From: Patescibacteria group bacterium
GTDB lineage: Bacteria; Patescibacteriota; Patescibacteriia; SG8-24; DYFX01
Reading direction: 5' to 3'
DNA: 64,000 nucleotides
Assembly: GCA_030583805.1 (NCBI GenBank)
Contig: CP129476.1
Location: forward strand, 1,030,657 to 1,094,656
Positions 7,764 to 52,215 of the stretch are shown here, in pieces (position 1 is the stretch's first letter; each line of letters starts with the position of its first letter). Made by a program: the position numbers and the translations under genes. Under the pieces are notes generated by a model. It saw nothing but the letters and a program-made list of their open reading frames with translations, ran no database searches and was not told the origin of the DNA.

Positions 7764-9689
7764 ATGGCCTTCAATCCCATTACGGCCACGCGCGAGGCAG
7801 CCGCTCCGAAACCGGAGAAGCCGAAGCTGACCGCCGAAGAAAAAAAACGCCTTGCGCAGGAAGAGCGCATCAAGCTCGAGGAAGAGCGCATTTACCGCAA
7901 GGGCGTCGTCACGCTGCGCGATTTGATCGCGCCGGCGGCGTTTGAAGTCAAATCGAACCTCGTGCGGCTGGGCGACCTCTACGCGCGCACCGTTTTCGTC
8001 GTTACCTACCCGCGCTATCTTTCGCTCGGTTGGTTCACGCCGATCATCAATTTTTCGGCGACGATGGATATCGGCATGTTCTTCTATCCCGTCCAGCCGG
8101 AGATCATTTTGAAACAGCTGAAAAACAAAGTAGGTATTTTGGAAGCCCAGATCATCGGCGACGCCGAGAAAGGCGCCGCGCGCGATCCGCTCCGCGAAAC
8201 GGCGTTGCGCGACATTGAAAAGCTGCGCGACGACCTGACGCAGGGGATCGAGCACTTCTTCCAATTCGCGCTGTACGTGACGATTTTCGCGCCGTCCGAA
8301 AAGGAACTCGACGACCTGACCAACCAGGTCGAAGGCATGTTCGGTTCGAAGCTGATCTACACCAAGCGCGTGCTCTACCAGTCGGAACAGGGTTTCAACT
8401 CGACCCTGCCGTCCGGGAACGACGAGCTCATGATCACCTTCAACATGAACACGAGCCCGATCGCTTCGGGTTTCCCGTTCGTCTCGGCCGACCTGACGTC
8501 CGACAATGGCATCCTCTACGGCATCAACCGTCACAACAACAGCCTGATCTTGTTCGACCGCTTCTCGCTGCAGAACGCCAACGCGGTCGTCTTCGCCACG
8601 TCCGGCGCGGGTAAGAGCTACACCGTGAAGCTCGAGGTGCTCCGTTCGCTCATGCTCGGCATCGAGGTGATCATCATCGACCCGGAAATGGAGTACAAGC
8701 ACCTTTCTGACGCGGTCGGCGGCACCTACATCAATATCTCGCTCGCTTCCGAATCGAAGCTCAACATCTTCGATTTGCCGCGCCCGATGGGGGAGGAAGT
8801 GCGTTCCGAAGACATCATCCGCTCGGCCGTCATCACGGTGAAAGGCCTCATGCGCATCATGTTCGGCAGCGTCACTACAGCCGAAGACTCGATCATCGAC
8901 CGCGCGCTTTTGGAAACGTACGCGAAAAAGGACATTATCCCGGGCGTCGACCTCGCCACCATCGAGCCGCCGATCCTTTCCGATTTCCAGCAGGTGCTCG
9001 AAGGCATCACGGGCACGGAGGATTTGCAGATCAAGCTCCGCAAGTACACTGAAGGCACCTTCGCCGGACTTCTCAACTCGCCGACGACGGTCGAAATGAA
9101 CAACAAGCTCGTCGTCTTCAGCGTCCGCGACCTCGAAGACGAATTGCGCCCGCTTGGCGTCTACACGATCGTGAACTACATTTGGAACGTCGTCCGCTCG
9201 GAACGTAAAAAGCGCATCCTAGTGATCGACGAAGCCTGGTGGCTCATGCAGAACGACGACTCGGCGAAATTCATCTTCGCCCTGGTCAAGCGCTGCCGCA
9301 AATATTTCTTGGGCGTCACGACGATCACGCAGGACGTCAACGACTTCCTGCGCTCGCCTTACGGCCAGGCGATCGTCACCAACTCCGCGCTCCAGATCCT
9401 CCTCAAGCAGTCGGCAGCCTCGATCGATCTCGTCCAAAAGACGTTCTTGCTGACGGAAGGCGAGAAGTACCTGCTGCTCGAAGCCGGCGTCGGCGAAGGC
9501 ATTTTCTTCGCGGGTTCGCGGCACGCTGCCATCAAAGTCGTCGCTTCGTACGCCGAAGACCAAATCATTACGTCTGATCCCCGCCAGCTACTTGAGATCG
9601 AAAATGCCAAAAAAGAATTGGATGAACAGCTCATCCAGGCCTCCGAGAATCCCGGATCGCCTGCGAATCCCGCTCAACAACCCGCATAA
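7764..9689 (+). CDS. virB4: VirB4/TraC/CagE-family conjugal transfer ATPase (C-terminal ~3/4)
   Basis: Walker A (VVFATSGAGKSYTVK), Walker B (ILVIDEAWWLM), the LIAP...GWF region and a C-terminal ATPase core; typical VirB4 architecture. Confidence 0.85.
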   Translation: MAFNPITATREAAAPKPEKPKLTAEEKKRLAQEERIKLEEERIYRKGVVTLRDLIAPAAFEVKSNLVRLGDLYARTVFVVTYPRYLSLGWFTPIINFSATMDIGMFFYPVQPEIILKQLKNKVGILEAQIIGDAEKGAARDPLRETALRDIEKLRDDLTQGIEHFFQFALYVTIFAPSEKELDDLTNQVEGMFGSKLIYTKRVLYQSEQGFNSTLPSGNDELMITFNMNTSPIASGFPFVSADLTSDNGILYGINRHNNSLILFDRFSLQNANAVVFATSGAGKSYTVKLEVLRSLMLGIEVIIIDPEMEYKHLSDAVGGTYINISLASESKLNIFDLPRPMGEEVRSEDIIRSAVITVKGLMRIMFGSVTTAEDSIIDRALLETYAKKDIIPGVDLATIEPPILSDFQQVLEGITGTEDLQIKLRKYTEGTFAGLLNSPTTVEMNNKLVVFSVRDLEDELRPLGVYTIVNYIWNVVRSERKKRILVIDEAWWLMQNDDSAKFIFALVKRCRKYFLGVTTITQDVNDFLRSPYGQAIVTNSALQILLKQSAASIDLVQKTFLLTEGEKYLLLEAGVGEGIFFAGSRHAAIKVVASYAEDQIITSDPRQLLEIENAKKELDEQLIQASENPGSPANPAQQPA

Positions 9690-11894: not shown

Positions 11895-14800
11895 ATGGTT
11901 ACGCTGAAGAAATCGAAAATTGTCCGTTTTTTGAGCGGTGTCGCCGTTGCGCTCCTGCTCGCCGTCTCTGCAAATACTATCCACACCCCTTCCGCACAGG
12001 CGGAGGTGCCGGACTTGGTTACGCATCTCAAGTTTGATAACGACGCGACCGACTCGGTGGGGGATAACGACTTCATTCTTCGCGGCACGACGAGCTTCAG
12101 CACGCAGGTTGCGCCCGTCGCGGGCAACGTCGCTTCGCTTCAGATCGGCGGAGTCGAGTCGCAGGCGCTCGGCGGTTGGGCTTTCTTCGACGGCTGGACG
12201 GGCGGCAGTCTCGCGTATTGGTTGCGCATCGATAGCGCAACAGCGCAGACATGGCCTGAAGGAAGCACGCGCGACTTGCTTTTCAAATACCAGATTCTTC
12301 AAACGAAAATCGTGAAGAACGCGGGTCAGCTCTGGCTCGTGACGACGCACGGCGACGGTACGTCGTTCGGCTCGAACACCTGGGTGACTTCCACGACCCC
12401 GCTTCCGGTGGACGCGTGGGTTCATGTCGTCACCACGCATACGGGCACGACCGCTTCCATCTACCTCAACGGCCAAGCGGCGGGTTCTGGTGACACGAAT
12501 AAAACGCTCGGCATCGCAAGCAGCGACATTTTCGAGATTCATCCGTACGACGGCGGTTTCGCCGGCCTGATCGATGAATTCCAAGCGTACAACCGCGCAA
12601 TCACGCAGGCTGAAGCGTCGGAATTGGCGGGAGGCGGCGGCGCTCCGACGACATTCACGGTTACGGCTTCCGCCGGCGCGAACGGTGCGATCACTCCGTC
12701 CGGCTCGGTCGTCGTGAACAGCGGCGCCAACCAGAGCTTCACGATCACGCCGAACGGCGGCTACCAGGTCGCGGACGTTTTGGTTGACGGCGTCTCGCAG
12801 GGTGCCGTTACGAGCTACACCTTCACGAACGTCACGGCCAACCACACGATCTCGGCTTCGTTCTCGGCGATTCCTCCGACGAACTACACGATCACCGCGA
12901 GCGCCGGCACGGGCGGTTCGATCACGCCGAGCGGTTCCGTTTCCGTATCCTCCGGACAGACCCAGGCCTTCACGATCACGCCGAACGGCGGTTATCAAAT
13001 CGCCAATGTCCTGGTGGACGGCGTTTCCGTCGGCGCGGTTTCGAGCTACGTTTTCTCGAACGTGAACGCCAACCACACGATTTCGGCGTCCTTCTCGACG
13101 GCGACGCCGCCGGAAGGCACGTTCCAGCTCGACGACCAATACATCACCGGACTCGCCAGCCCGACCGCGATGGCGTACGCACCGGACGGCCGCTTGTTCA
13201 TCACCGAACAGGCCGGCGCCGTGCGTATCGTCACGCCTGAAGGGCAGCTGCTCTCGCAGCCGTTCCTGGTCACGACCAACATGCGCAGCGATGAAGAGCG
13301 CGGTCTCTTGGGCATCGCCTTCGACCCGAACTTCACGACGAACAACTACGTCTACATCTTCTACACCGAGAACTCGCTCGGCGCGCGCCTCAGCCGCTTC
13401 ACGGCCAACGGCAACGTCGTCGTTCCGGGCAGCGAAGTCGTCCTGCTCGAGTACTACAACATCTCCGGCAACCATCGCGGCGGCGACGTGCACTTCGGTC
13501 CGGACGGCAAGCTGTACCTCGCTCTCGGCGACGCCGGCGAACCGCTCGAGTCGCAGTCGGTCACGACCTACAACGGCAAGATCCTTCGCTTGAACAGCGA
13601 CGGTTCGATTCCGAGCGACAACCCGACGACCTTCGTGGATAGCTCGGGCCAAACCTTGACTCCGGCCGGCCCGTACCGCGCCATCTGGGCGATGGGCCTC
13701 CGCAACCCGTACCGCTTCTCCTTCCACGCCACGACCGGAAAGATGCACATCAATGACGTCGGCGCGGGTCTTTGGGAAGAAGTGAACGTGGGCCAGGCTG
13801 GACGCAACTACGGCTGGCCGACCTGCGAAGGCTACTGCACGAGCCCGAATCCGAACGTTCAGGATCCGATCTACGTGCATGAGCGCGGCATCGAAGGCTG
13901 CGCCATCACGGGCGGCGCTTTCTACACGGGCAGCCAGTTCCCGGTCGAGTACCACAACGACTACTTCATCATCGACTACTGCAGCACCTGGCTTCGCTAC
14001 CTGAATGCGTCCGACGACGCTCAGGCGACGTTCCCGCTCTCGATCCCGATGTTCTCGGTCGACCTGAAGACCGCGACGGACGGCAGCCTTCTGATCGCCG
14101 GACACGGTTCCGGCACGATCTCCCGCCTTTCCTTCGTGAGCAGCAGCTCGAACAGCAATCCGGTCGCAAGCGCCTTGGCTACTCCGACGTCCGGACCTTC
14201 GCCGCTCTCGGTGTTGTTTGACGGTACCGGTTCGACGGATCCGGACAACGATCCGCTGACGTACAGCTGGGCGTTCGGCGACGGCGCAACCGGCACTGGC
14301 GCGACCGCAAACCACGTCTACGCGACGGGCGGCGCCTACACGGCCGTCCTGACCGTCACCGACGGCAACGGCGGCTCCGACACGGACAGTGTCCTGATTT
14401 CGGTCGGCGCTCCGCCCTCGGCCTCGATCCTCACGCCTTCCATTGGAACGCTCTACACGGCCGGCGATACGATCGCGTTCTCCGGATCGGCCACCGACCC
14501 GGATGATGGTGTCCTGCCCCCGAGTGCCTTCAGCTGGACCGTCGTGTTCCATCACGATGCGCACACGCACCCGCACCTCGGCCCTCTGACCGGCGTCGCG
14601 AGCAGCACCTTCACGATCCCGACGTTCGGCCACACGGAAGAAAATGTCTGGTACCGCATCAACCTGACAGTGACCGACTCGGCCGGCCTCCAGGCGACGG
14701 CATCGCGCGACGTCTATCCGCGCAAGGCGAACGTCACGCTTGATTCGAATATTCCGGGCACGCAGGTGCTTCTCGACGGCTCGCCCGTCGCGACCCCGTA

Positions 14801-15620
14801 CACGTTCGTCGGCGTCGTCGGTGTGCAGCGCACGATCGGCGTCACCTCGCCGCAAACGATCGGGGGACAGGGGTATGAATTCGGTTCCTGGTCCGACGGC
14901 GGCGCGCAGAGTCACACGATCGTGACGCCGAGTGCGACCACGACGTACGCCGTCGCCATGAATGTCCAAACGACGCCGACCTTGCCGGACCCTTCCCTTC
15001 ACTGGAAATTCGACAACAGTGAGATTGAAGAAGTCTTGGGCACGACGACGGTTCCGCGTGGAACGATCGTCTACACGACCGATACGGCGCCGACCGCCAG
15101 CGCAAATGCTGGCGCGGTCCAATTCAACGGAGCGGTTGGCACCTACTATGCGACGAACGGCACGAACATCCTGAACGCCTGGCCGGCCGCGACGAGCTCG
15201 GTCTGGGTGAAAATCACCGCCGCAACCGCCAATAGCTGGAACAACAACAGCTACCACGCCTTGCTGTTCAAATACCGCACGTTCCAGACCCGCATCCAGA
15301 AGACCTCGACGGGCTTGAAGTTCGTCGCCACGCATAGCGACGGCAGCGCACCCTTCAACACGCACATCACGTCGACAACTTCGATTCCGACCGATACCTG
15401 GGTCAACCTCGTGACGGTGCATGAAGGCACCACACTCACGATGTACATCAACGGCCAGCTGGCCGGCAGCGGCTCGACCGGCAGGACGTTCGGCGGCGCC
15501 AACACCGAAGGCCTTGACATCATCGGTCACGGCGGCAACTACACCGGACTGCTCGACGATCTCCGCTTCTACAACACCGCCTTCACCGAGGCGCAGGTAC
15601 AGCAGATCCCGCTGCAGTAA
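11895..15620 (+). CDS. Giant secreted multidomain protein: signal peptide, LamG/ConA-like lectin domains, InlB-type B-repeats, PQQ-dependent glucose/sorbosone-dehydrogenase-like beta-propeller, PKD domain
   Basis: Signal peptide [28 protein letters not shown]. Repeated ~75-aa [18 protein letters not shown]...[12 protein letters not shown] modules. SGDH-like propeller motifs ([30 protein letters not shown]). PKD-like segment ([28 protein letters not shown]). LamG-like N- and C-terminal domains. Confidence 0.7.
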
Positions 15621-15629
15621 ATCGGAAAA

Positions 15630-15661
15630 GAAAAAAGACCCGTTCATACGGGTCTTTTTTC
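15630..15661. terminator. Bidirectional intrinsic terminator
   Basis: AAAAAAGACCCGTTCATACGGGTCTTTTTT, a perfect GC-rich hairpin flanked by A and T runs. Lies between the giant gene and a convergent tRNA. Confidence 0.65.
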
Positions 15662-15662
15662 G

Positions 15663-15753
15663 TGGCGGAGGGTGTGGGGATCGAACCCACAAGACCAGTT
15701 GCCCGGTCGCAGTTTAGCAAACTGCTGCCTTACCATTCGGCGCAACCCTCCGC
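15663..15753 (-). tRNA. tRNA-Ser (anticodon GCT), type II
   Basis: Reverse complement folds with acceptor GCGGAGG/CCTCCGC, anticodon loop TTGCTAA, long variable arm, T-loop TTCGATC, CCA. Confidence 0.8.
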
Positions 15754-15916
15754 GTCGCTTACCGGCCTCGCTTCCGCAAGAACGCGCTCCGCGGTTCTTG
15801 CTCTCGCTCGGCCGCCGCTCCTCCTGCTCGCTGCGCTCGCATCATTCGGACGCCGGTAGGGCAGGGAGAGCTCGTGGCAGCCCTATCCTACGGTATTTAA
15901 AAAGCCTTGTAAAGCG

Positions 15917-15925
15917 TGGTATACT
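15917..15925 (+). promoter_or_regulatory. Extended -10 promoter element TGGTATACT; start codon 9 nt downstream (leaderless or near-leaderless)
   Basis: TGnTATACT motif. The ATG of the downstream gene lies at 15934. Confidence 0.45.
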
Positions 15926-15933
15926 GTCCCCAT

Positions 15934-16452
15934 ATGGCGGATGAATTGCTCGAAAGCGGTGCGGAGGCCGGCGTGCCCTACTACGGCGAGGAGGTCTTCG
16001 GCTGGATGGTCGACGAGTACGAACGGCACGAACGCGGGCCGATGTGGTACGCGATCGCCTTTTTGATCGGCCTTAGCTTCGTCATGTACGCGATCATCAC
16101 GCGCAACTTCCTTTTCGCGGTCATCGTGATCATGGCGGGCGTGATCGTCGCCCTTTCGGCCATGCGCGAACCGCAGAAGATCCCGTTCCTGATCACGACG
16201 CGCGGCGTGGCGCTCGGCCACCAGTTCGTTCCGTTCAAGGATCTCCGGAGTTTCTGGATCCTCTACGAGCCGCCGCACACCAAAAATCTCTACGTCGATT
16301 TCCGCAGCTCGGTCACGCCGCACCTCGTCATCCCGCTCGGCGAGCAGGATCCGGTCGAGTTGCGCCAGGCGCTGCTCGAATTCCTGGGCGAGAACGTGAC
16401 GCAGGAAGAGGAACCGCTCACGGACGTGCTCGGACGCTTCCTCAAGATCTGA
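15934..16452 (+). CDS. Hypothetical membrane protein
   Basis: Two to three TM helices (YAIAFLIGLSFVMYAIIT, LFAVIVIMAGVIVALSA). Start set at the ATG after the -10 element rather than the ORF-track ATG, which overlaps the -10. Confidence 0.45.
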   Translation: MADELLESGAEAGVPYYGEEVFGWMVDEYERHERGPMWYAIAFLIGLSFVMYAIITRNFLFAVIVIMAGVIVALSAMREPQKIPFLITTRGVALGHQFVPFKDLRSFWILYEPPHTKNLYVDFRSSVTPHLVIPLGEQDPVELRQALLEFLGENVTQEEEPLTDVLGRFLKI

Positions 16453-16465
16453 AGTTGGAGAAAGC

Positions 16466-16492
16466 AAAAACAGCGGGTAAACCGCTGTTTTT
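16466..16492. terminator. Bidirectional intrinsic terminator
   Basis: AAAAACAGCGGGTAAACCGCTGTTTTT. Confidence 0.6.
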
Positions 16493-16495
16493 GCA

Positions 16496-16572
16496 TGGTG
16501 CGACCGAGACGATTCGAACGTCTGACCTCAACCTCCGCAGGGTTGCGCTCTATCCAGCTGAGCTACGGTCGC
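16496..16572 (-). tRNA. tRNA-Arg (anticodon read as GCG)
   Basis: 77-nt cloverleaf: acceptor GCGACCG/CGGTCGC, D-stem GCTC/GAGC, anticodon stem CAACC/GGTTG with loop CTGCGGA, T-loop TTCGAAT, ACCA end. Confidence 0.75.
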
Positions 16573-45276: not shown

Positions 45277-45597
45277 ATGAAGAAGCGGAACCTGTTCAGC
45301 GAACGCGTCCTCGAGCTCGTCCTCTCGATCCCGAAAGGCCGCGTCACGACCTACGGCCGCATCGCCCGCCAAGCCGGCGGCGGCACCATGGCCGCCCAAA
45401 GCATCACCGCGATCCTCTGGAAAGCCGAACAGCGCGGGGTGAAGAATATTCCGTATCATCGCATCGTGTATGCGGATGGGAGGATTTGGGTTGATCCGAA
45501 GCGGAGGGGGGAGAGGTTGGCGTTGTATAAGAAGGAGGGGATTCAAATAGGCAAAGACGATAAGGTGGTGGATTTTAAGAAGAAATTGCCTCAATGA
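45277..45597 (+). CDS. MGMT-family protein (alkyltransferase-like DNA-binding domain; Cys replaced by Tyr: PYHRIV)
   Basis: IPKGRVTTYGRIA...NIPYHRIV matches the MGMT DNA-binding domain; canonical PCHRV is altered. Confidence 0.6.
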   Translation: MKKRNLFSERVLELVLSIPKGRVTTYGRIARQAGGGTMAAQSITAILWKAEQRGVKNIPYHRIVYADGRIWVDPKRRGERLALYKKEGIQIGKDDKVVDFKKKLPQ

Positions 45598-45601
45598 ACG
45601 T

Positions 45602-46276
45602 ATGGCTTATCTGAAATGGTTGGAGAATGGCTACTTAAAGAAGCAATCCGGGAAATACTACCTGCTGCTCATTGCGTTCTCTATAGCGGGATTTATTTTT
45701 TCTCGAAGCTCACTTTCCCAGAGGTTTCCATTCACGTTCGCATTGGTCGGTATATTTGTCGTTGTAGTTTATATCCTTGCGTACTTCAAATATTTCAAAA
45801 AGATTCTGCATTTTGAAAAAGGGATAGATGGAGAATGGGCTGTTGCCAAAGTCTTGTGTGACTTGCCAGAGTCGCACTTTGGCTTCCATGATGTACGCGT
45901 GCCAGGCATGTGGGGGAATATTGATTTTGTCGTCGTTACACCTACGCATGTTTTTGCACTCGAGGTAAAAAACACGCTGTGGTATTCAACAAAGTCTCAT
46001 GTCAAACAGGCAAAACAAGGAGCCATGTTCTTGAATAGGTGGCTGCGGCAACAGATTGGTCACGACATCTTCGTAAATCCAGTCGTCGTGTTTTCTCATA
46101 GTAAAAATAAGTGGCGGCATACCGGCATTCATGATCGTGCCGGGGTGGTAAGACTGGACGGCCTCAACGCCTTTGTTTTGGATAAATCCGGACGGTCTTA
46201 TGACACAGGTCTGATGATCCCGGTCGTGCAAGCGCTTAAAAGGTTTACGCCTGTTCATAAGGTTGTTTGCGACTAA
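45602..46276 (+). CDS. NERD (nuclease-related domain) protein with N-terminal TM
   Basis: EWAVAKVL...HDVRVPG..GNIDFVVVTPTHVFALEVKN pattern of the NERD domain. Confidence 0.65.
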   Translation: MAYLKWLENGYLKKQSGKYYLLLIAFSIAGFIFSRSSLSQRFPFTFALVGIFVVVVYILAYFKYFKKILHFEKGIDGEWAVAKVLCDLPESHFGFHDVRVPGMWGNIDFVVVTPTHVFALEVKNTLWYSTKSHVKQAKQGAMFLNRWLRQQIGHDIFVNPVVVFSHSKNKWRHTGIHDRAGVVRLDGLNAFVLDKSGRSYDTGLMIPVVQALKRFTPVHKVVCD

Positions 46277-46316
46277 AAGGAAGTGAGCAGGCGCAAGCCC
46301 GTACTTAAATCTAGCC

Positions 46317-46354
46317 TTTGCCCCGTTCGCCCTTCTTCCTGTAGGATCGGGTAC
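46317..46354. repeat. 38-bp direct repeat copy 1 (duplicate of dnaE promoter region)
   Basis: TTTGCCCCGTTCGCCCTTCTTCCTGTAGGATCGGGTAC; 36/38 identical to 48656-48693. Confidence 0.75.
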
Positions 46355-46465
46355 GTCGTTAGTGAACCTTAATAAATCCCTTTGGTGCCAGGTACGGATA
46401 ACCGTGAATTTTAGAAAAAACATGCTACACTAAATCTAGTTGTGAAGTGTTAATTCGCACACACT

Positions 46466-46861
46466 ATGAATCCAGTGGTCAAAAAGTTTGGAATCGCGAT
46501 TGGTGCCATTGTAGTTCTGTTTATCGTTCTCAGTAGATTTTCAATCGTGGAATCTAGGTATGTATGCCTGGGGGATTTAACAAGTGATACCGGAGTTCGG
46601 TCTACTAATGTCTATTTAAAACTCCAGAAGTATAGGTGGTGGGTTCATCTATGGAATGATTCCTACGGTGCATTGAATTGGGAAATTCCAAATACCTGGA
46701 CTGAGTACTACGAGCGTATTGAAGACGTTGGAGATCATCTTCAATTTTTTGAAATGTATCCCAGTAGGAAATCCAAGGGAAATTTCTCGCTACTCAGCGG
46801 AGCGATCAAAATTGTAACTCCTTTGGGAAATTTTCAAGGAGATTGCAGGATTGCTGAGTAA
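46466..46861 (+). CDS. Hypothetical protein with N-terminal TM (island cargo)
   Basis: 131 aa, low-GC. Confidence 0.4.
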   Translation: MNPVVKKFGIAIGAIVVLFIVLSRFSIVESRYVCLGDLTSDTGVRSTNVYLKLQKYRWWVHLWNDSYGALNWEIPNTWTEYYERIEDVGDHLQFFEMYPSRKSKGNFSLLSGAIKIVTPLGNFQGDCRIAE

Positions 46862-46961
46862 CATACTAACTTAAAAATTTGAAAGCCACTCCCAGATAGG
46901 GATCTTTCCCCGTTAGTGCCAGGCACTGGCAAAAAATGGCACTATGGGGATGTTCTAGTAT

Positions 46962-48137
46962 ATGCGTGGAAAAGCAGCGATAAATCCAAAAATTTTGGTC
47001 TGGGCGAGGGAGGATTTTGGTATTTCTATTGAAGCAGTGGCCAAAGGGATTGGACAAAAAAATAAAAAAATCATTGAGCTTTGGGAGAAGGGTGAAGATG
47101 CCCCATCATTTGCTCAACTGGAATCACTTGCTAGATTTTATAAAAGACCGACAGCCTTTTTCTATTTACCCGAACCCCCAACCCCGACAAAATTACCAAA
47201 CGACTTTCGGACAGCGCTATCAAAAAATGTTGAAATTTTACATAAAGAAACCAGACTTGCGGTTCGTAGAGCTGAGTATGTCCAGCAAGTTTTGAAAGAG
47301 ATCGAGCAAGAAGGTCTCGAAGAATTTAAGCTAAAGACGACACTGGCCGATGATTCAAACCTCCTCGTTAGGGAAGTTGAAATCCTGGGCAATTTAGATA
47401 GGGAACACTTTCGAAAAAGCACACAGGATTCAAGAACGGCTCTTGCATTCTGGAGAAACTTTATTGAAGAAAAAATTGGTGTCATTACGCTATCTCTCCC
47501 TTTCCCTCTTAAAGAGGCGAGAGGTTTTTCATTGTTTGATGCGACGCATCCTGTAGTTGTTATTAATTCTCATGACACTGAAAACGGAAAAATATTTTCG
47601 TTATTCCATGAACTAGGACATCTTGCATTAAGAGGCTCGGGTATCTGCCTGCCTTCCGAGGTGGGAACCAGCAACAGTTTTCCTTCAAAAATTGAGCAGT
47701 TTTGTAACTCCTTCGCAGGAAGTTTTTTGGTACCAAATAACTCGTTAAATAACTATAAGCAAAAAAAATCCTTTGACGTTGAGAATTTTGATTCAACTAT
47801 TGATTCTACAGCCAAGTATTTCAGAGTAAGCAAGTTTGTAATTTTGGCTAGATTACTGCAGCTACATGAAATTAACAAGAATATTTTTTCTGAAAAAACA
47901 CAGCAATATAGAGAAGAATATGAAAAAATTAAAAATCTTGTAGAAAAGAAGAAGTTTGCGGTTAAGCAAGAGTATCTTTGTGTAAGTGCGAACGGACCCC
48001 GCTTCACCACAAAAGTATTAGCCAGCTACAACGAGAAGAAGATCACTTTGAGTGATGTTTCACGTTTGTTAAACGTGGGTGTTCGGCATATTAAAAATGT
48101 CGAAAGCTATATTTATAAACGAGCGCGGAATACGTAA
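46962..48137 (+). CDS. XRE-family HTH domain fused to ImmA/IrrE-type zinc metallopeptidase (COG2856-like)
   Basis: N-terminal HTH (ILVWAREDFGISIEAVAKGIG); HEXXH motif FSLFHELGHLAL. Confidence 0.7.
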   Translation: MRGKAAINPKILVWAREDFGISIEAVAKGIGQKNKKIIELWEKGEDAPSFAQLESLARFYKRPTAFFYLPEPPTPTKLPNDFRTALSKNVEILHKETRLAVRRAEYVQQVLKEIEQEGLEEFKLKTTLADDSNLLVREVEILGNLDREHFRKSTQDSRTALAFWRNFIEEKIGVITLSLPFPLKEARGFSLFDATHPVVVINSHDTENGKIFSLFHELGHLALRGSGICLPSEVGTSNSFPSKIEQFCNSFAGSFLVPNNSLNNYKQKKSFDVENFDSTIDSTAKYFRVSKFVILARLLQLHEINKNIFSEKTQQYREEYEKIKNLVEKKKFAVKQEYLCVSANGPRFTTKVLASYNEKKITLSDVSRLLNVGVRHIKNVESYIYKRARNT

Positions 48138-48139
48138 GT

Positions 48140-48652
48140 ATGATTGAGCTCAAAACGGCTCAACAACCAGCAGCTCGTTATTGCTTAGATGCTTGTGCAC
48201 TTATTGATTTTGATAAGGTAAGGTTCCCACACGATCACTTTGAGGTTGTCTGGAAAGAGCTCAATTCTTTGGTAGAAAGTGGCGCTATGATTTCTCCGCG
48301 TGAGGTACGGAGAGAAGTTGTTACGGAAGTAAAAGAAAAGGACTGGGTTAACAAGTGGGCTAGTACCAGGAAACAAATGTTTATTAATCCGGATGAAGAA
48401 CAGGAAAAGATTGTTACTCTCGTTCTCACCAAATTTCCTAAAATGTTAAATAAGTACCAAAGCGGGCCCTTTGCTGATCCATGGGTTGTGGCTTTGGCCA
48501 AAGCAAGGAATCTGACCGTTATTACGTCAGAACTACCTGGAGGGAAAGGTGCGTGGAAAATCCCAGATATTTGTCGTGAGTTAGGTGTTGCATGCTTTGA
48601 CATTACTGATTTGATTCGGGCAGAAAACTGGAAATTTAATGCGAAAATTTAG
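48140..48652 (+). CDS. DUF4411-like PIN-type putative nuclease, partner of the HTH-ImmA gene
   Basis: 170 aa; acidic residues in a PIN-like arrangement (YCLDACALID...D); 3-nt spacing to the upstream gene. Confidence 0.5.
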   Translation: MIELKTAQQPAARYCLDACALIDFDKVRFPHDHFEVVWKELNSLVESGAMISPREVRREVVTEVKEKDWVNKWASTRKQMFINPDEEQEKIVTLVLTKFPKMLNKYQSGPFADPWVVALAKARNLTVITSELPGGKGAWKIPDICRELGVACFDITDLIRAENWKFNAKI

Positions 48653-48655
48653 TGT

Positions 48656-48693
48656 TTTGCCCCGTTCGCCCTTCCTCCTGTAAGATCGGGTAC
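48656..48693. repeat. 38-bp direct repeat copy 2 / dnaE promoter region (TGTAAGAT extended -10)
   Basis: TTTGCCCCGTTCGCCCTTCCTCCTGTAAGATCGGGTAC, 10 nt upstream of the dnaE ATG. Confidence 0.75.
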
Positions 48694-48702
48694 ACTTGAT
48701 CT

Positions 48703-51700
48703 ATGGGCACCAAATTCACCCACCTCCACACCCACTCCCACTACAGCCTCCTCGAGGCCTTGCCTCAGGTTGATAAGTTGGTGAAATTCGCCAAGGTCCA
48801 GGGGGCGACGGCGGTGGGGCTGACGGATAACGGGAACATGTTCGGGGTGATCGAATTCGTGCAGGAGTGCCAGAAGGCGGAGATAAAACCCATAATAGGT
48901 TACGACGCTTTTGTTGCAGTTGAGACGATTGAATTGAAAAGACATAGAATTGATGACAAAAATACCCGCCTCGTTTTATTAGCCGAGACGATGGAGGGGT
49001 ACAAGAATTTGATGAAGCTCGCTTCGGCGGCGTACTTGGACGGCTTCTACTATCGTCCGCGTATCGACCGGAACCTGCTCCGCCAGCACGGGAAGGGGAT
49101 CATCGCCCTCGCGGGGCCGCGCAGCGATATCGGCAAGGCGCTCACCGACGGCGACATGGAAAAGGCGCGGGAGCGTGCCAAGGAGTACGTCGAGATTCTC
49201 GGCAAGGACAATTTTTTCTTCGAGCTTTTGTACCAGCCCGACAACCCGACGCAGAAGGAAACGAACGACGCCTTCGTCGCGCTCGGCAAAGAGCTCGGCA
49301 TCGGCGTCGTCGCCTCGCGCAACGTTTATTATTTGAAACCGGAGCAAGCCGAGGCGCGCTCGCTGCTTTTGTGCATCAAGGACAACCGCACGCTCGAAGA
49401 GCGAGAGCGGTCGGTCGCGGCCGACAACGATCTTTCGATGTCGTCGCCGGAGGAAATCGAAGAAGCGTTCAAGGAGATTCCCGAAGCGCTCGAGAACAAC
49501 GCCCGCATCGTCGAGCGCTGCAACGTCCAGCTCGAGCTCGGCAAATGGAACTTCCCGATCTACGAAATTCCCGACGGGCTCACGGCCATCGACTACCTGA
49601 GAAAAATTTCTTTCGAGCGGCTGCCGCGCCTGCTCAAGCGCCCGCTCGAGCAGCGCGAGATCGACCGCTTGAATTACGAAATCGATATTGTCGAGAAGAA
49701 GGGCTACGCCACGTACTTCCTGGTCGTGGCCGACTACGGTTCGTGGGCGCGCAGCCAGGGCATCGTGCTGACCACGCGAGGTTCGGCTGCCGGCTCTCTC
49801 ATGGCCTACGCGATCGGCATCGTCACGGTCAATCCGCTCGACTACAATCTGCCGTTCGAGCGCTTCCTGAACCCGCAGCGACCGTCGGCGCCTGATATCG
49901 ATATGGACTTCGCCGACCACCGTCGCGGCGAGGTGTTGGAATACGTGAAAAGGAAATACGGGGCCGACCACGTGGCGCAGATCTGTACCTTCGGAACGAT
50001 GGCCGCGCGCGCTTCGATGCGCGACGTCGGCCGTGCCTTGGGTTATCCGGTCGCGTTTTGCGATCAAATCGCCAAGACGATCCCGTTCGGCCAGCAAGGC
50101 TTCGCCATGACGATCGACCGCGCCTTGAACGAGACGCCTGATTTCAAGCGTCGCTACGACACCGAGCCGGAAGTGAAACGCCTCGTCGACCTGGCCAAGC
50201 AGATCGAGGGCAACGCGCGGCACTGCTCGGTCCACGCCGCCGGCGTCGTCATCTCCGACAAGCCGCTCGTCGAATACACACCGCTGCAGCGCGAAGCGGG
50301 CGGCGAAGCCATCATCACTCAATACGAAATGCATGCGGTCGAAGACGCCGGCGTGCTCAAGATGGACTTCCTGGGCATCCGCAACCTCTCGATTTTGGAA
50401 TACGCGATCGCGCTCGCCAAGCGCACCAAAGGCGTCGAAGTCGATTTGGTGCACATGGATTTGAAGGACAAGAAAACGTTCGACATGCTCGCCGCCGGAA
50501 AAACGATGGGCCTCTTCCAGCTGAACGGCGACGGCATGACCAAGTACCTGATGCAGCTCAAGCCCACGGTCATCGAAGACATCATGGCTATGGTCGCGCT
50601 CTACCGTCCGGGCCCGATCGACATCATCCCGGAGTTCATCAGGCGCAAGCAGAACCCGAGGCTCATCACGTACCTCGATCCGCGCATGAAGGAATATTTG
50701 GGCATGTCGTACGGCATGCTCGTCTATCAGGACGACGTGCTCATGACCGCCATCAACCTGGCGGGTTACGACTGGCTCGAAGCCGACAAGTTCCGCAAGG
50801 CCATGGGCAAGAAGATTCCGGAAGAAATGGCCAAGCAGGAAATCAAGTTCAAGGAAGGCTGCGTCGAGCACGGCATGACCAAGGCCAAGACGGAAGAGCT
50901 TTGGGAACTCATCAAGCCGTTCGCGGCCTACGGCTTCAACAAGGCGCACGCCGCCTCGTACGGCATCGTCGCGTATCAAACGGCCTACATGAAGGCCAAC
51001 TTTCCGGCCGAGTACATGACGGCGCTCATGACGGCGGAATCCGGCGATCTCGACACCATCGCCCTCGCGGTCAAAGAGTGCAACGCGCTCGGCATCAACG
51101 TCTTGCCGCCGGACGTGAACAGCTCCGAGGCCGATTTCACGTACATCGACGACCACACGATCCGCTTCGGTCTCGGCGTCATCAAGGGCCTCGGCATCGA
51201 TACGGTCAACGCCATCATCGAGGAACGCAAGGCGAGCGGCGCCTTTAAAGACCTCGCCGATTTCGCGGGACGCATTCCCGGCAAGGCGTTCAACAAGAAG
51301 TCGCTCGAAGCCCTGGCCAAGTCCGGCGCGCTCGACGCGCTCGGCGAACGCAACCAGATCGTCGAGAACTCCGACGTCCTCACGACCTACAACAAGAATC
51401 TCCTCAAGGAACGCGACAACGGCCAGTCGAATCTTTTCGCCTTCGTGGTGCCCGCCGGCACCGAGCTCGTGCCGACGCTCGGCCTCCGCAACGTCCCGCC
51501 GGCCACGCAGCGCAAGAGGCTTGATTGGGAAAAGGAACTGCTCGGCCTCTACGTCAGCGCGCATCCGTTCGAAGAGATGGCGAAGGAGTTCGACAAGCTG
51601 CTCATGCCGATTTCCCAGGCGTTCACGCTGCCGGAAAAATCTCCGATCAGGGTCGGCGGCACCGTCACGGCGGTCAAGCAAATCGTCACCAAAAAATCGG

Positions 51701-52215
51701 GCGAGCCGATGCTCTTCGCGACGATCACCGACCCGACCGGCACGGTCGAGTGCTTGGTGTTCCCGAGCGTCTTCAAGGAGAACGGCACGGCCTGGGTCGA
51801 GGGCGCGAACTTGGCGGTTACCGGACGCGTCTCGCGCAAGGACGACGAGTTCAAGATCCTCGCCGACCGCGGCTGGCCGCTCACGAGCGAAACGATCCCG
51901 GTCTACAAAGCGCATTTCAACGGCGAGGCGGTCAGCTCCGACATGATGCTTTCCATGCAGCGCCCGCGCGCCAAGCCGGGGAGCGGGGAAGTGCGCATCG
52001 TCCTGCCGTCCAAGATGCCGCCGTCCGCCGTGGCGGCGCTCAAGGCCGCGCTGGCGAAGTACCCCGGCGCCACCCACGTCGCGCTCGACGTCCGTTCCGA
52101 GGGCGGCTACCAGCGCGTCGAGACGTCGTTCCAAATCGACCCTTCCCCGGACGCCGTCGCCGCCATCGAAAAGCAAGTCGGCATGGGCAACGTGAAGGTC
52201 CAGCTTCCTGTATAA
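48703..52215 (+). CDS. dnaE: DNA polymerase III subunit alpha
   Basis: PHP domain (THLHTHSHYSLLE), polymerase core, OB-fold; 1170 aa. Confidence 0.95.
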   Translation: MGTKFTHLHTHSHYSLLEALPQVDKLVKFAKVQGATAVGLTDNGNMFGVIEFVQECQKAEIKPIIGYDAFVAVETIELKRHRIDDKNTRLVLLAETMEGYKNLMKLASAAYLDGFYYRPRIDRNLLRQHGKGIIALAGPRSDIGKALTDGDMEKARERAKEYVEILGKDNFFFELLYQPDNPTQKETNDAFVALGKELGIGVVASRNVYYLKPEQAEARSLLLCIKDNRTLEERERSVAADNDLSMSSPEEIEEAFKEIPEALENNARIVERCNVQLELGKWNFPIYEIPDGLTAIDYLRKISFERLPRLLKRPLEQREIDRLNYEIDIVEKKGYATYFLVVADYGSWARSQGIVLTTRGSAAGSLMAYAIGIVTVNPLDYNLPFERFLNPQRPSAPDIDMDFADHRRGEVLEYVKRKYGADHVAQICTFGTMAARASMRDVGRALGYPVAFCDQIAKTIPFGQQGFAMTIDRALNETPDFKRRYDTEPEVKRLVDLAKQIEGNARHCSVHAAGVVISDKPLVEYTPLQREAGGEAIITQYEMHAVEDAGVLKMDFLGIRNLSILEYAIALAKRTKGVEVDLVHMDLKDKKTFDMLAAGKTMGLFQLNGDGMTKYLMQLKPTVIEDIMAMVALYRPGPIDIIPEFIRRKQNPRLITYLDPRMKEYLGMSYGMLVYQDDVLMTAINLAGYDWLEADKFRKAMGKKIPEEMAKQEIKFKEGCVEHGMTKAKTEELWELIKPFAAYGFNKAHAASYGIVAYQTAYMKANFPAEYMTALMTAESGDLDTIALAVKECNALGINVLPPDVNSSEADFTYIDDHTIRFGLGVIKGLGIDTVNAIIEERKASGAFKDLADFAGRIPGKAFNKKSLEALAKSGALDALGERNQIVENSDVLTTYNKNLLKERDNGQSNLFAFVVPAGTELVPTLGLRNVPPATQRKRLDWEKELLGLYVSAHPFEEMAKEFDKLLMPISQAFTLPEKSPIRVGGTVTAVKQIVTKKSGEPMLFATITDPTGTVECLVFPSVFKENGTAWVEGANLAVTGRVSRKDDEFKILADRGWPLTSETIPVYKAHFNGEAVSSDMMLSMQRPRAKPGSGEVRIVLPSKMPPSAVAALKAALAKYPGATHVALDVRSEGGYQRVETSFQIDPSPDAVAAIEKQVGMGNVKVQLPV

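What the first reader, a model, noticed from the sequence alone, without database searches (positions are those of the whole stretch)
45598..48693. Low-GC nuclease/defence island inserted at the dnaE promoter
GC drops from ~63% to ~40% exactly from the end of the MGMT-like gene to the dnaE 5' region. The island encodes a NERD nuclease-domain membrane protein, a small TM protein, an XRE-HTH::ImmA/IrrE metallopeptidase fusion and a DUF4411/PIN-like protein. These domain families recur in phage-defence and abortive-infection islands and in TA-like modules. No integrase or transposase is present, so the acquisition mechanism is unclear.
Basis: partly seen in the sequence, partly recalled or inferred. 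Interest (0 to 1): 0.75.

Follow-up and report, generated by a model that had tools for sequence, protein, structure and literature searches.

The report
Defence-gene insert beside dnaE, Patescibacteria
A 3-kb stretch of foreign, low-GC DNA sits just upstream of the replicative polymerase gene of a tiny groundwater-type bacterium; it carries a recently characterised type of toxin-antitoxin phage-defence module plus two membrane proteins, and the same spot holds different defence genes in every close relative examined, so it is a real but fairly ordinary defence hotspot.

Summary
GC falls from 0.61 to 0.41 over about 45586-48655, the strongest compositional outlier in the window, and all four domain calls hold.

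The host is a Patescibacteria (CPR) MAG. In nine related contigs the interval between the ATL (MGMT-like) gene and dnaE holds different cargo each time: two STAND NTPases, a HEPN protein, a zeta toxin, Fic plus a type I R-M system, or small unknown ORFs. None carries the window's genes. It is therefore a hypervariable defence/TA hotspot.

A conserved 38-nt promoter-like element lies directly upstream of dnaE in relatives. In the window it is duplicated (46317-46354 and 48656-48693) and brackets ORF3 plus the TA pair, but not NERD. The insert is therefore a two-block mosaic.

The HTH-M78/DUF4411 pair is homologous to M. tuberculosis VapBC52 (PDB 9VZY). It retains HExxH, the Cys switch, the FR autocleavage motif and the PIN acidic residues. 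The likely mechanism is ssDNA-triggered antitoxin self-cleavage that frees a tRNA-cleaving PIN toxin.

NERD is a two-TM PD-(D/E)xK protein. ORF3 is a membrane-anchored 8-stranded beta-barrel from an unannotated family.

No integrase or transposase is present, so the likely route is homologous recombination through the conserved flanks. This is a new member of a known kind, of moderate interest.

The parts
45277..45597 (+). ATL (alkyltransferase-like, MGMT DNA-binding-domain-only) gene. This is the native left flank of the hotspot. It has PYHR in place of the PCHR active-site motif.
   Evidence: PF01035, E 1.3e-12. Homologues at 87-88% identity lie in syntenic relatives. Homology to relatives ends at 45543-45585.
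45586..48655 (.). Horizontally acquired low-GC insert occupying the ATL|dnaE hotspot.
   Evidence: GC is 0.41 against 0.61 and it is the strongest tetranucleotide outlier in the window. Apart from the 38-nt element there is no blastn match to any relative.
45602..46276 (+). Block 1: a 224-aa membrane-anchored NERD (PD-(D/E)xK) nuclease-domain protein. It has two N-terminal TM segments (about residues 20-69) and the motif D108...E121-V-K123. Its ATG lies 4 nt after the ATL stop codon.
   Evidence: PF08378, E 6.5e-14. Hydropathy and motif analysis. GC is 0.447, higher than block 2. Only domain-level matches to defence models: PDC-S41 at E 0.0026 and MAD6 at 23.6 bits against a cutoff of 460.
46317..46354 (+). 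Copy 1 of the conserved 38-nt dnaE leader / promoter-like element (TTGCCC-N18-TAGGAT).
   Evidence: It matches copy 2 at 36 of 38 positions. Two matches occur in the window against 0 expected. It diverges from the native dnaE leader immediately after GGGTAC.
46385..46395 (+). Operator-like near-palindrome GTGCCAGGTAC upstream of ORF3.
   Evidence: GTGCCAGGYAC occurs only twice in 64 kb, both times in island intergenic regions, against 0.01 expected. The pattern was derived post hoc.
46466..46861 (+). Block 2a: ORF3, 131 aa. It has an N-terminal TM helix and an 8-stranded beta-barrel with two conserved Cys (C34, C127). It belongs to an unannotated family and its function is unknown.
46916..46942 (+). 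Operator-like palindrome GTGCCAGGCAC plus a further TGGCAC half-site, 20-45 nt upstream of the antitoxin start codon.
   Evidence: Read directly from the sequence. Function is inferred only.
46962..48137 (+). Block 2b: a 391-aa VapB52-like antitoxin/sensor, an XRE-HTH fused to an IrrE/ImmA (M78) Zn-peptidase. It has HExxH at H216/H220, Cys-switch C229, E245 and an FR motif at F82-R83.
   Evidence: Pfam HTH_3 plus Peptidase_M78. PADLOC RmrA, E 2.8e-24. PDB 9VZY_A (VapB52), E 7.4e-23 over residues 9-316. Motif positions. phrog_2439, E 1.4e-53.
48140..48652 (+). Block 2c: a 170-aa VapC52-like DUF4411 PIN-domain toxin. Acidic residues D17, E55, D113 and D143 are present. It starts 3 nt after the antitoxin stop codon.
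   Evidence: PF14367, E 3.6e-31. PDB 9VZY_D / 9VZZ_A, E 2.3e-16 / 5.6e-15. Conserved columns in A4. The AF2 model (pLDDT 86) has VapC toxins among its top Foldseek hits at probability 1.0.
48656..48693 (+). Copy 2 of the 38-nt element. This is the native, conserved dnaE leader / promoter-like element (TTGCCC-N18-TAAGAT). Its -10-like hexamer ends 16 nt before the dnaE ATG.
   Evidence: It is conserved at the same position in L003, L004, L083, L095 and L096 (34-36 of 38) and is identical in L002, a second-sample assembly of the same strain. Homology to relatives starts exactly here.
48703..52215 (+). dnaE (DNA polymerase III alpha), the native right flank of the hotspot.
   Evidence: 94% aa identity to a Patescibacteria MAG (L003) and 87% to L004. 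Pfam domains are listed.

Best explanation
The region is a roughly 3.07-kb horizontally acquired mosaic, about 45586-48655. It occupies a lineage-specific hypervariable defence/TA hotspot between the ATL gene and dnaE of a Patescibacteria genome. It contains two blocks.

**Block 1.** A membrane-anchored NERD (PD-(D/E)xK) nuclease-domain protein. Its gene starts 4 nt after the ATL stop codon, so it is probably co-transcribed with ATL (inferred).

**Block 2.** Bracketed by two copies of the conserved 38-nt dnaE leader element, this block holds a membrane-anchored beta-barrel protein of unknown function (ORF3) and a VapBC52-type (Rosmer-like) toxin-antitoxin pair.

**Mechanism of the TA pair**, inferred by homology to M. 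tuberculosis VapBC52:
- The HTH-IrrE/ImmA antitoxin binds the DUF4411 PIN toxin and occludes it.
- Through its HTH it probably represses its own promoter at the GTGCC/GGCAC palindromes.
- ssDNA from phage replication or DNA damage displaces the Cys-switch loop (C229) from the Zn site (H216, H220, E245).
- The activated peptidase cleaves the antitoxin itself at the FR motif (F82-R83).
- The freed PIN toxin (D17/E55/D113/D143) cleaves tRNAs, arresting translation in an abortive-infection or growth-arrest response.

**Acquisition** (inferred). Cargo is exchanged between strains by homologous recombination through the conserved ATL and dnaE flanks, without any element-encoded recombinase. The duplicated 38-nt element records tandem accretion of two cassettes and leaves dnaE with its own native leader.

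**Shown versus inferred.** Composition, domains, sequence and fold homology, conserved catalytic and regulatory residues, hotspot variability and the repeat are shown. Toxicity, the trigger, the RNA targets, the operator, promoter activity and the recombination route are inferred.
For: **Composition.**

**Domains.**

**Host and synteny.** (dnaE 94% aa identical in L003, 87% in L004).

**Different cargo at the same site:**
- L003: Mrr_cat-nSTAND3, PDC-S73, E 8e-151.
- L094: DUF4419 plus a NACHT/nSTAND4 protein, PDC-S60, E 6e-92.
- L087: HEPN_Cthe2314.
- L083: Zeta_toxin, E 9e-30.
- L095/L096: a 153-aa ORF at native GC.
- L097: Fic plus type I hsdMSR.
- L099: unknown ORFs of 190 and 168 aa.
- Sources.

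**Junctions.** They coincide with the edges of conserved sequence.

**The 38-nt element.** It is duplicated in the window and conserved upstream of dnaE in relatives.

**TA homology.** VapB52/VapC52 match at E 7.4e-23 and 2.3e-16. HExxH, C229, E245 and FR are retained. The PIN residues are conserved and the fold is VapC-like.

**Pairing elsewhere.** The pair recurs in an unrelated chromosome with a 4-nt gene overlap (L085).

**Literature.**
- PMC13273310 (VapBC52): ssDNA-induced autocleavage, tRNA cleavage, protection against phage D29.
- PMC5499597: predicted HTH-DUF955 + DUF4411 TA systems.
- PMC10440598 and bioRxiv 10.1101/2022.05.11.491447: ImmA/Rosmer antitoxin hub.

**Operator-like motif.** It occurs only in the two intergenic regions of block 2.
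Against: - Nothing was tested experimentally in this organism.
- Identity to VapBC52 is low. The C-terminal ~75 residues of the antitoxin, which form the toxin-occluding domain in VapB52, were not aligned by phmmer.
- In PMC13273310, phage protection was shown with toxin over-expression, not with the intact pair.
- The DUF4411 protein matches no PADLOC model, so PADLOC would not call a Rosmer system here.
- The 38-nt element scores only 8/12 against the sigma-70 consensus and was not listed by the promoter scan. 'Promoter' therefore rests on conservation and position.
- NERD and ORF3 have no demonstrated defence role. The one ORF3 homologue with retrievable context (L084) is not next to a TA pair.
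- Homologous recombination alone does not obviously produce a duplicated 38-nt element.
Confidence: 0.72

Rival explanations
1. Site-specific cassette capture. The 38-nt element, or part of it, would act as an attachment site. A 2,339-bp circular cassette (ORF3 + TA + one element copy) would be integrated by a recombinase supplied in trans, as in integron or IMEX systems, generating the direct repeat. The hotspot would be variable because cassettes are inserted and excised at this site.
For: - A 38-nt direct repeat (36/38) brackets block 2 precisely.
- In all relatives the cargo junctions fall at the edges of this element. Cargo lies upstream of it in L003, L004, L083 and L095, and between it and the dnaE ATG in L087, L094 and L099.
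- No integrase is needed in cis.
- A partial TTTCCCCGTT match lies at 46905-46914, between ORF3 and the TA pair.
Against: - No recombinase gene lies within the roughly 7.5-9 kb on either side that was annotated.
- The element has no clear dyad-symmetric core of the kind tyrosine-recombinase or Xer sites have. It has only a 7-nt imperfect inverted repeat with a 15-nt spacer (read from the sequence).
- The element occurs only at dnaE in every locus fetched.
- Copy 1 carries a T at position 19 that L004 also has. This fits import from another allele rather than a fresh target duplication.
- Its position, 16 nt from -10 to ATG, is that of a promoter.
Confidence: 0.13
2. A selfish addiction or stress module rather than phage defence. 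The TA pair and its neighbours would persist because of post-segregational or addiction effects, or would serve DNA-damage and stress responses. Their presence in a 'defence hotspot' would simply reflect a permissive integration site for any accessory DNA.
For: [quoted passage not shown]
- Some alleles carry cargo with no recognisable defence domain: L095 (153 aa), L099 (190 and 168 aa) and ORF3.
- The left flank is a DNA-repair gene (ATL).
Against: - Most alleles carry bona fide or candidate defence genes: PDC-S73, PDC-S60, type I R-M, HEPN and zeta toxin.
- The antitoxin matches RmrA models of a validated defence system.
- VapC52 cleaves phage tRNAs and protects against phage D29.
Confidence: 0.12
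3. Assembly or binning artefact. The low-GC segment would come from a different organism and would have been joined chimerically into a high-GC Patescibacteria contig.
For: The GC change is abrupt, the genome is a MAG, and the automated gene caller mis-handled the region.
Against: - Both junctions are present, 100% identical, in a separate Logan assembly (L001).
- The right junction is present in a contig from a different sample (L002, SRR31594170).
- Relatives have comparable low-GC cargo at the identical site, for example L003 at GC 0.344.
- The junctions fall at biologically meaningful boundaries.
Confidence: 0.02

Closest known systems
VapBC52 toxin-antitoxin system of Mycobacterium tuberculosis (PDB 9VZY/9VZZ; Singh et al., NAR 2026, PMC13273310)
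   Same: - The two-gene order is the same: antitoxin, then toxin.
- The antitoxin is an N-terminal HTH plus an IrrE-type Zn-peptidase with HExxH, a Cys-switch Cys 13 residues after the first His, a third-ligand Glu and an FR motif.
- The toxin is a DUF4411 PIN domain with conserved acidic residues.
- Sequence homology is significant: E 7.4e-23 and 2.3e-16.
   Different: - Overall identity is low.
- The C-terminal toxin-occluding domain of the antitoxin is not alignable by phmmer.
- The host is a Patescibacteria genome, not an actinobacterium.
- The pair lies on a low-GC insert next to dnaE, together with an upstream beta-barrel membrane gene that shares an operator-like motif.
- None of the biochemistry has been tested here.
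RosmerTA (RmrT/RmrA) phage-defence systems (Millman et al. 2022; Ernits et al. 2023, PMC10440598)
   Same: The antitoxin is an HTH + ImmA/IrrE Zn-peptidase and matches PADLOC RmrA models (best E 2.8e-24). It is a two-gene TA paired with a variable toxin. PIN-like partners of the ImmA hub are noted in PMC10440598.
   Different: The toxin matches no PADLOC model. The experimentally validated Rosmer toxins described in PMC10440598 include a membrane-depolarising toxin, not a PIN RNase.
Predicted three-component HTH / DUF955 / DUF4411.1 TA systems (Matelska et al. 2017, PMC5499597)
   Same: The architecture is exactly as described there: a DUF4411.1 gene directly downstream of a fused HTH-DUF955 (COG2856) gene.
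   Different: That work was prediction only. The present case adds nothing to the architecture.
Defence islands / integration hotspots flanked by conserved core genes
   Same: Conserved flanks (ATL and dnaE) hold unrelated defence or TA cargo in each close relative. The cargo has atypical GC and no mobility genes.
   Different: - The hotspot abuts, and sometimes splits, the leader of the essential dnaE gene.
- In L087, L094 and L099 the cargo lies between the conserved element and the dnaE ATG, 11-12 nt from dnaE in L087 and L094 and overlapping its start in L099.
- In the window the conserved element is duplicated.
Cap15 CBASS membrane effector (PDB 7N34), as a comparison for ORF3 only
   Different: - ORF3 has one TM helix, not two.
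- A conserved Cys pair suggests an extracytoplasmic, disulphide-closed barrel.
- No CD-NTase gene is nearby.
- Identity is 12%.

Membership tests
VapBC52-type TA (HTH-IrrE/ImmA antitoxin + DUF4411 PIN toxin) | The antitoxin has an N-terminal HTH and an M78/IrrE peptidase domain with HExxH. | tested here: met
   HTH_3, E 4.4e-08, and Peptidase_M78, E 7.9e-18. HELGH at residues 216-220.
VapBC52-type TA (HTH-IrrE/ImmA antitoxin + DUF4411 PIN toxin) | Both proteins show sequence homology to the solved VapB52 and VapC52 chains. | tested here: met
   9VZY_A, E 7.4e-23. 9VZY_D, E 2.3e-16. 9VZZ_A, E 5.6e-15.
VapBC52-type TA (HTH-IrrE/ImmA antitoxin + DUF4411 PIN toxin) | The regulatory residues are present: the Cys-switch Cys, the third Zn ligand Glu and the FR autocleavage motif. 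| tested here: met
   C229, E245 and F82-R83 align with the VapB52 C229, E245 and FR motif described in PMC13273310.
VapBC52-type TA (HTH-IrrE/ImmA antitoxin + DUF4411 PIN toxin) | The toxin is a DUF4411 PIN fold with a conserved acidic active site. | tested here: met
   PF14367, E 3.6e-31. D17, E55, D113 and D143 are conserved in A4. The AF2 model has VapC toxins among its top hits.
VapBC52-type TA (HTH-IrrE/ImmA antitoxin + DUF4411 PIN toxin) | The antitoxin has a C-terminal helical domain that occludes the toxin active site. | tested here: inconclusive
   phmmer aligns only residues 9-316. Full-length coverage comes only from family models: PADLOC RmrA over 7-379 and phrog_2439 over 4-381. 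No complex model could be built.
VapBC52-type TA (HTH-IrrE/ImmA antitoxin + DUF4411 PIN toxin) | Toxicity, neutralisation, ssDNA-triggered autocleavage and tRNA cleavage. | not testable with these tools
   These require expression and biochemical assays.
RosmerTA (as defined by PADLOC models) | An RmrA Zn-peptidase antitoxin. | tested here: met
   Thirteen RmrA models match, best E 2.8e-24.
RosmerTA (as defined by PADLOC models) | A recognised RmrT toxin adjacent to RmrA. | tested here: not met
   The DUF4411 protein matches 0 PADLOC families. It works like a Rosmer system but is not a model-defined member.
NERD nuclease-related domain proteins | A match to PF08378 above the gathering score, with an intact PD-(D/E)xK motif. 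| tested here: met
   52.8 bits against a cutoff of 22.1. D108...E121-x-K123. Nuclease activity is not testable.
Known NERD-containing defence systems (PDC-S41, MADS MAD6, ZwsA) | A full-length match to the system's protein model or architecture. | tested here: not met
   Matches are at domain level only: PDC-S41, E 0.0026 over 75 of 657 positions, and MAD6, 23.6 bits against a cutoff of 460. ZwsA has VHS/DUF647/S4 domains that are absent here.
Horizontally acquired genomic island in a hotspot | Atypical composition relative to the host. | tested here: met
Horizontally acquired genomic island in a hotspot | The genes are absent from close relatives, which hold different cargo at the same locus. 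| tested here: met
   Nine related contigs (L003, L004, L083, L087, L094, L095, L096, L097, L099) were examined and none has the window's genes. L095 and L096 carry the same cargo, giving eight distinct alternative contents.
Horizontally acquired genomic island in a hotspot | Mobility genes (integrase or transposase) or a tRNA target. | tested here: not met
   None lies in the island or in the roughly 7.5-9 kb of annotated flank on either side. The nearest tRNAs are about 29 kb away.
Integron-like / IMEX-like cassette | Direct repeats of a recombination site flanking the cassette, together with a cognate recombinase. | tested here: inconclusive
   A 38-nt direct repeat is present. However, it is the conserved dnaE leader, has no clear dyad core, and no recombinase was found in the window region examined.
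Cap15-like CBASS effector (ORF3) | A TM segment plus a nucleotide-binding beta-barrel, encoded next to a CD-NTase. | tested here: not met

The most novel reading that the evidence does not exclude
The conserved 38-nt element upstream of dnaE would be both the dnaE promoter/leader and a recombination site. Integrase-less defence cassettes would be captured there in tandem by a host-encoded recombinase, forming an integron-like or IMEX-like platform in the streamlined genomes of Patescibacteria. The window would then preserve a two-cassette array: NERD + element, then ORF3-VapBC52-like + element. As a corollary, ORF3 may be a second, membrane-acting effector under the same HTH-peptidase sensor, because it shares the GTGCCAGGYAC motif.
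Probability: 0.1. Interest if true: 0.7.

Novelty: new member of a known kind. Interest (0 to 1): 0.36.

Why it matters
Patescibacteria/CPR genomes are about 1 Mb and are generally thought to be poor in defence systems beyond R-M (PMC12455944). This locus shows that at least one lineage maintains a dedicated, rapidly turning-over defence/TA slot directly next to its replicative polymerase gene. Across close relatives that slot samples STAND NTPases, HEPN, zeta toxin, Fic/type I R-M and a VapBC52-type TA. The locus gives:

1. A natural set of alleles for studying how integrase-less cargo is exchanged in CPR bacteria.
2. A distant, compact homologue of the newly characterised ssDNA-sensing VapBC52 system, useful for testing how general that mechanism is.
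3. An unannotated family of membrane-anchored beta-barrel proteins that may be linked to it.

None of this overturns current understanding.

Tried and rejected
- **Rfam.** Scans at gathering threshold of the window and of L003, L087, L094 and L095 found only three distant tRNAs in the window and nothing in the island or hotspot.
- **ARAGORN.** It found no tRNA or tmRNA at the hotspot in any relative. tRNA-targeted integration is therefore rejected.
- **tRNA-like fragment in L087.** It gave only sub-threshold hits, and its associated terminator is absent from the window.
- **Promoter/terminator scan.** It did not list the 38-nt element, which scores 8/12 against a threshold of 9/12, and found no terminator between DUF4411 and dnaE.
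- **RNA-structure reading of the 38-nt element.** The only pairing is a 4-bp CCCG/CGGG stem, and the L004 variant breaks it. This reading was considered by eye and dropped.
- **ORF3 context.** There were no matches in plasmids, phages or IMG/VR, and the first IMG/VR attempt failed because the alignment was too divergent. The single retrievable context (L084) has only unannotated neighbours.
- **NERD versus L097.** The window's NERD protein and the 223-aa protein in L097 are unrelated.
- **Metagenome scan.** The 23-nt element pattern returned only one extra locus (L083).
- **L098.** The synteny is different, so it was not used.
- **Fuzzy-regex search.** It timed out and was replaced by local alignment.

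Full report
**Observation.** The compositional break is real and sharp.
- GC is 0.608 upstream and 0.603 downstream, against 0.413 over 45598-48655.
- Among 123 sliding 3-kb windows, those covering the region are by far the most deviant in tetranucleotide usage: distance 0.059 against a median of 0.0158 (MAD 0.0013).
- GC3 is 0.35-0.50 in the four island genes, against 0.84 for dnaE and 0.81 for the upstream 351-aa gene.
- The upstream gene is a DNA_binding_1-only ATL protein. It carries PYHR where MGMT has PCHR.
- The downstream gene is dnaE.

**Host and empty-site test.** The dnaE protein finds Patescibacteria MAGs, with L003 at 94% and L004 at 87% aa identity. ATL homologues at 80-88% identity lead to further syntenic contigs of the form pheT..HU..OmdA-ATL-[x]-dnaE. 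None carries the window's four genes. Apart from a 38-nt element, blastn finds no match to 45586-48655 in any of them. Each holds something different between ATL and dnaE:

| Locus | Cargo between ATL and dnaE |
|---|---|
| L003 | 759-aa Mrr_cat-nSTAND3 protein (PADLOC PDC-S73, E 8e-151; GC 0.344) |
| L094 | 65-aa ORF, DUF4419, and a NACHT/nSTAND4 protein (PDC-S60, E 6e-92) |
| L087 | HEPN_Cthe2314 protein |
| L083 | Zeta_toxin (E 9e-30) |
| L097 | 223-aa ORF, Fic, and type I hsdM/S/R |
| L095/L096 | 153-aa ORF at native GC |
| L099 | Unknown ORFs of 190 and 168 aa |
| L004 | Unrelated partial ORF |

That is not met. The locus is best described as a hypervariable defence/TA hotspot.

Independent assemblies rule out a chimera. 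L001 carries both junctions. L002, from another sample, carries the right junction at 100% identity.

**Boundaries and the 38-nt element.**
- Left homology to relatives ends at 45584/45585 (L087, L095) or at 45542/45543 (L094, L003). The window's ATL is therefore full length, and the insert starts within about 15 nt of its stop codon.
- Right homology starts exactly at 48656 in L003, L004, L083 and L095.
- The sequence starting there, TTTGCCCCGTTCGCCCTTCCTCCTGTAAGATCGGGTAC, is conserved at 34-36 of 38 positions immediately upstream of dnaE in those relatives and in L096. It is identical in L002, the second-sample assembly of the same strain.
- It reads as TTGCCC-N18-TAAGAT, with the second hexamer ending 16 nt before the ATG. 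I interpret it as the dnaE promoter with a very short leader.
- That interpretation is an inference. The element scores only 8/12 against the consensus and was not listed by the scan.
- In the window the element occurs twice, at 46317-46354 and 48656-48693 (36/38 identical; 0 expected by chance).
- The two copies bracket ORF3 plus the TA pair but not NERD. The NERD block (GC 0.45) and the ORF3-TA block (GC 0.40) also differ in composition. The insert is therefore a two-block mosaic.
- In L087, L094 and L099 a diverged copy of the element lies upstream of cargo that is wedged between the element and the dnaE ATG. That cargo ends 11-12 nt before dnaE in L087 and L094 and overlaps its start in L099. 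Both edges of the element are therefore recombination-prone.

**The toxin-antitoxin pair.**
- The 391-aa protein matches PADLOC RmrA models, the RosmerTA antitoxin (best E 2.8e-24).
- A search of PDB sequences finds one entry, 9VZY. Its chain A ('HTH cro/C1-type domain-containing protein') matches at E 7.4e-23. Its chain D ('DUF4411 family protein') matches the 170-aa protein at E 2.3e-16.
- 9VZY is the M. tuberculosis VapBC52 complex (PMC13273310).
- That paper shows the following. VapB52 is an HTH plus IrrE-type peptidase. ssDNA activates the peptidase through a Cys-switch loop (Zn ligands H216, H220, E245 and C229). The peptidase cuts the protein's own N-terminal domain at an FR motif. This releases VapC52, a PIN RNase that cleaves host and phage tRNAs and protects M. 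smegmatis from phage D29.
- The window protein retains HELGH at 216-220, Cys229 thirteen residues after the first His, Glu245 and F82-R83.
- The toxin retains D17, E55, D113 and D143.
- Its AlphaFold model (pLDDT 86) has VapC toxins among its top Foldseek hits at probability 1.0.
- The genes are 3 nt apart. The same pairing recurs with a 4-nt overlap in an unrelated chromosome, between fumarase and a carboxyltransferase (L085).
- The architecture was predicted as a TA system in 2017 (PMC5499597). It lies in the ImmA/Rosmer hub of PMC10440598.
- The DUF4411 protein matches no PADLOC model. It works like a Rosmer system without being a model-defined member.
- A palindrome, GTGCCAGGCAC, with an extra TGGCAC half-site lies 20-45 nt upstream of the antitoxin gene. 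Its only other occurrence in 64 kb (GTGCCAGGTAC) is upstream of ORF3, against 0.01 expected. This is a plausible HTH operator shared by both transcription units of block 2, but the motif was identified post hoc.

**The other two genes.**
- The NERD protein has two N-terminal hydrophobic segments and an intact D...ExK motif. It matches defence models only at domain level.
- NERD domains are enriched in defence islands, and one (ZwsA) is an RNA endonuclease (bioRxiv 10.64898/2026.04.06.716636). That protein's architecture differs. I treat a membrane-tethered nuclease effector as likely and its target as unknown.
- ORF3 belongs to a real but unannotated family: 301 representatives, with conserved YRWWV and GxFSxLS motifs and two conserved Cys.
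- Its AlphaFold model (pLDDT 95.9) is a TM helix plus an 8-stranded barrel.
- The Cys pair lies on the first and last strands, which suggests a disulphide-closed extracytoplasmic domain (inference).

**How it got there.**
- No integrase or transposase is present in the island or in the roughly 7.5-9 kb of annotated flank on either side, and no tRNA lies at the hotspot.
- The simplest route is exchange of cargo by homologous recombination through the conserved ATL and dnaE flanks, with tandem accretion explaining the second element copy.
- Copy 1 carries a T at position 19 that L004 also has. This fits import together with NERD from another allele.
- The rival is trans-acting site-specific capture at the element. 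It is favoured by the exact bracketing repeat and by junctions at the element's edges. It lacks a recombinase and a recognisable dyad core. I give it about 0.13.

**Verdict.** The finding and its interpretation are supported, with refinements. The components are of known kinds. The TA pair is a distant member of a family characterised in 2026, hotspots are a familiar pattern, and genomic islands in Patescibacteria have been described (PMC12455944). The modest points of interest are three: the turnover of defence genes right at the dnaE leader in a streamlined CPR genome, the duplicated leader element, and the unannotated beta-barrel family. I score interest at 0.36 and rate it a new member of a known kind.

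Noticed in passing
L087:8349-8432 and 8513-8540; L003:7200-7295; L099 about 1750-1800: A tRNA-like fragment ending GGTTCGATTCC...CCACCA gives only sub-threshold mascRNA and tmRNA hits. It is followed by a conserved terminator, AACTCCCCGAAAGGGGAGTTT. The pair occurs near the hotspot in several relatives, on different sides of ATL, and is absent from the window.
   Followed up: partly
L087:9343-9356; L094:13547-13559; L099:2399-2417: In three relatives the cargo gene (HEPN, a NACHT/nSTAND4 protein, or a 168-aa TM protein) lies between the conserved promoter-like element and dnaE. It ends 11-12 nt before the dnaE start in L087 and L094 and overlaps it in L099. A defence or accessory gene is therefore probably co-transcribed with the essential polymerase gene.
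   Followed up: partly
window 45602-46276 and 46466-46861 (L001 7571-8284): The automated gene calls on the Logan contig annotate antisense ORFs of 79 and 145 aa instead of the NERD gene, and they miss ORF3 entirely. This is presumably because the low-GC genes do not fit the host coding model.
   Followed up: yes
window 46466-46861: ORF3 defines an unannotated family of about 130-aa proteins. It has 301 representatives at 50% clustering, a TM helix, an 8-stranded barrel and a conserved Cys pair. It has no Pfam, NCBIfam or PHROG model and no plasmid, phage or IMG/VR match.
   Followed up: partly
window 46905-46914: TTTCCCCGTT, identical to the first 10 nt of the L003/L083 version of the 38-nt element, occurs between ORF3 and the antitoxin gene. 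It could be a third, partial element copy or a chance match.
   Followed up: no
window 45277-45597: The 'MGMT-like' protein has PYHR instead of the PCHR alkyl-acceptor motif and lacks the N-terminal domain. It is therefore an ATL (alkyltransferase-like) damage-sensing protein, not a methyltransferase. In L003 and L094 its C-terminal tail is replaced by cargo-derived sequence.
   Followed up: partly
window 12000-16500: This region has the second-highest tetranucleotide deviation in the window (distance 0.021-0.027, GC about 0.63). Two tRNA genes lie at its 3' end (15663-15751 and 16496-16572).
   Followed up: no
L097:5257-13141: In another relative, a 223-aa unknown ORF, a Fic-domain protein and a complete type I R-M system (hsdM, hsdS, hsdR) follow ATL. 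The cargo GC is 0.583 against 0.649 for the flank. The contig ends before dnaE is reached.
   Followed up: no
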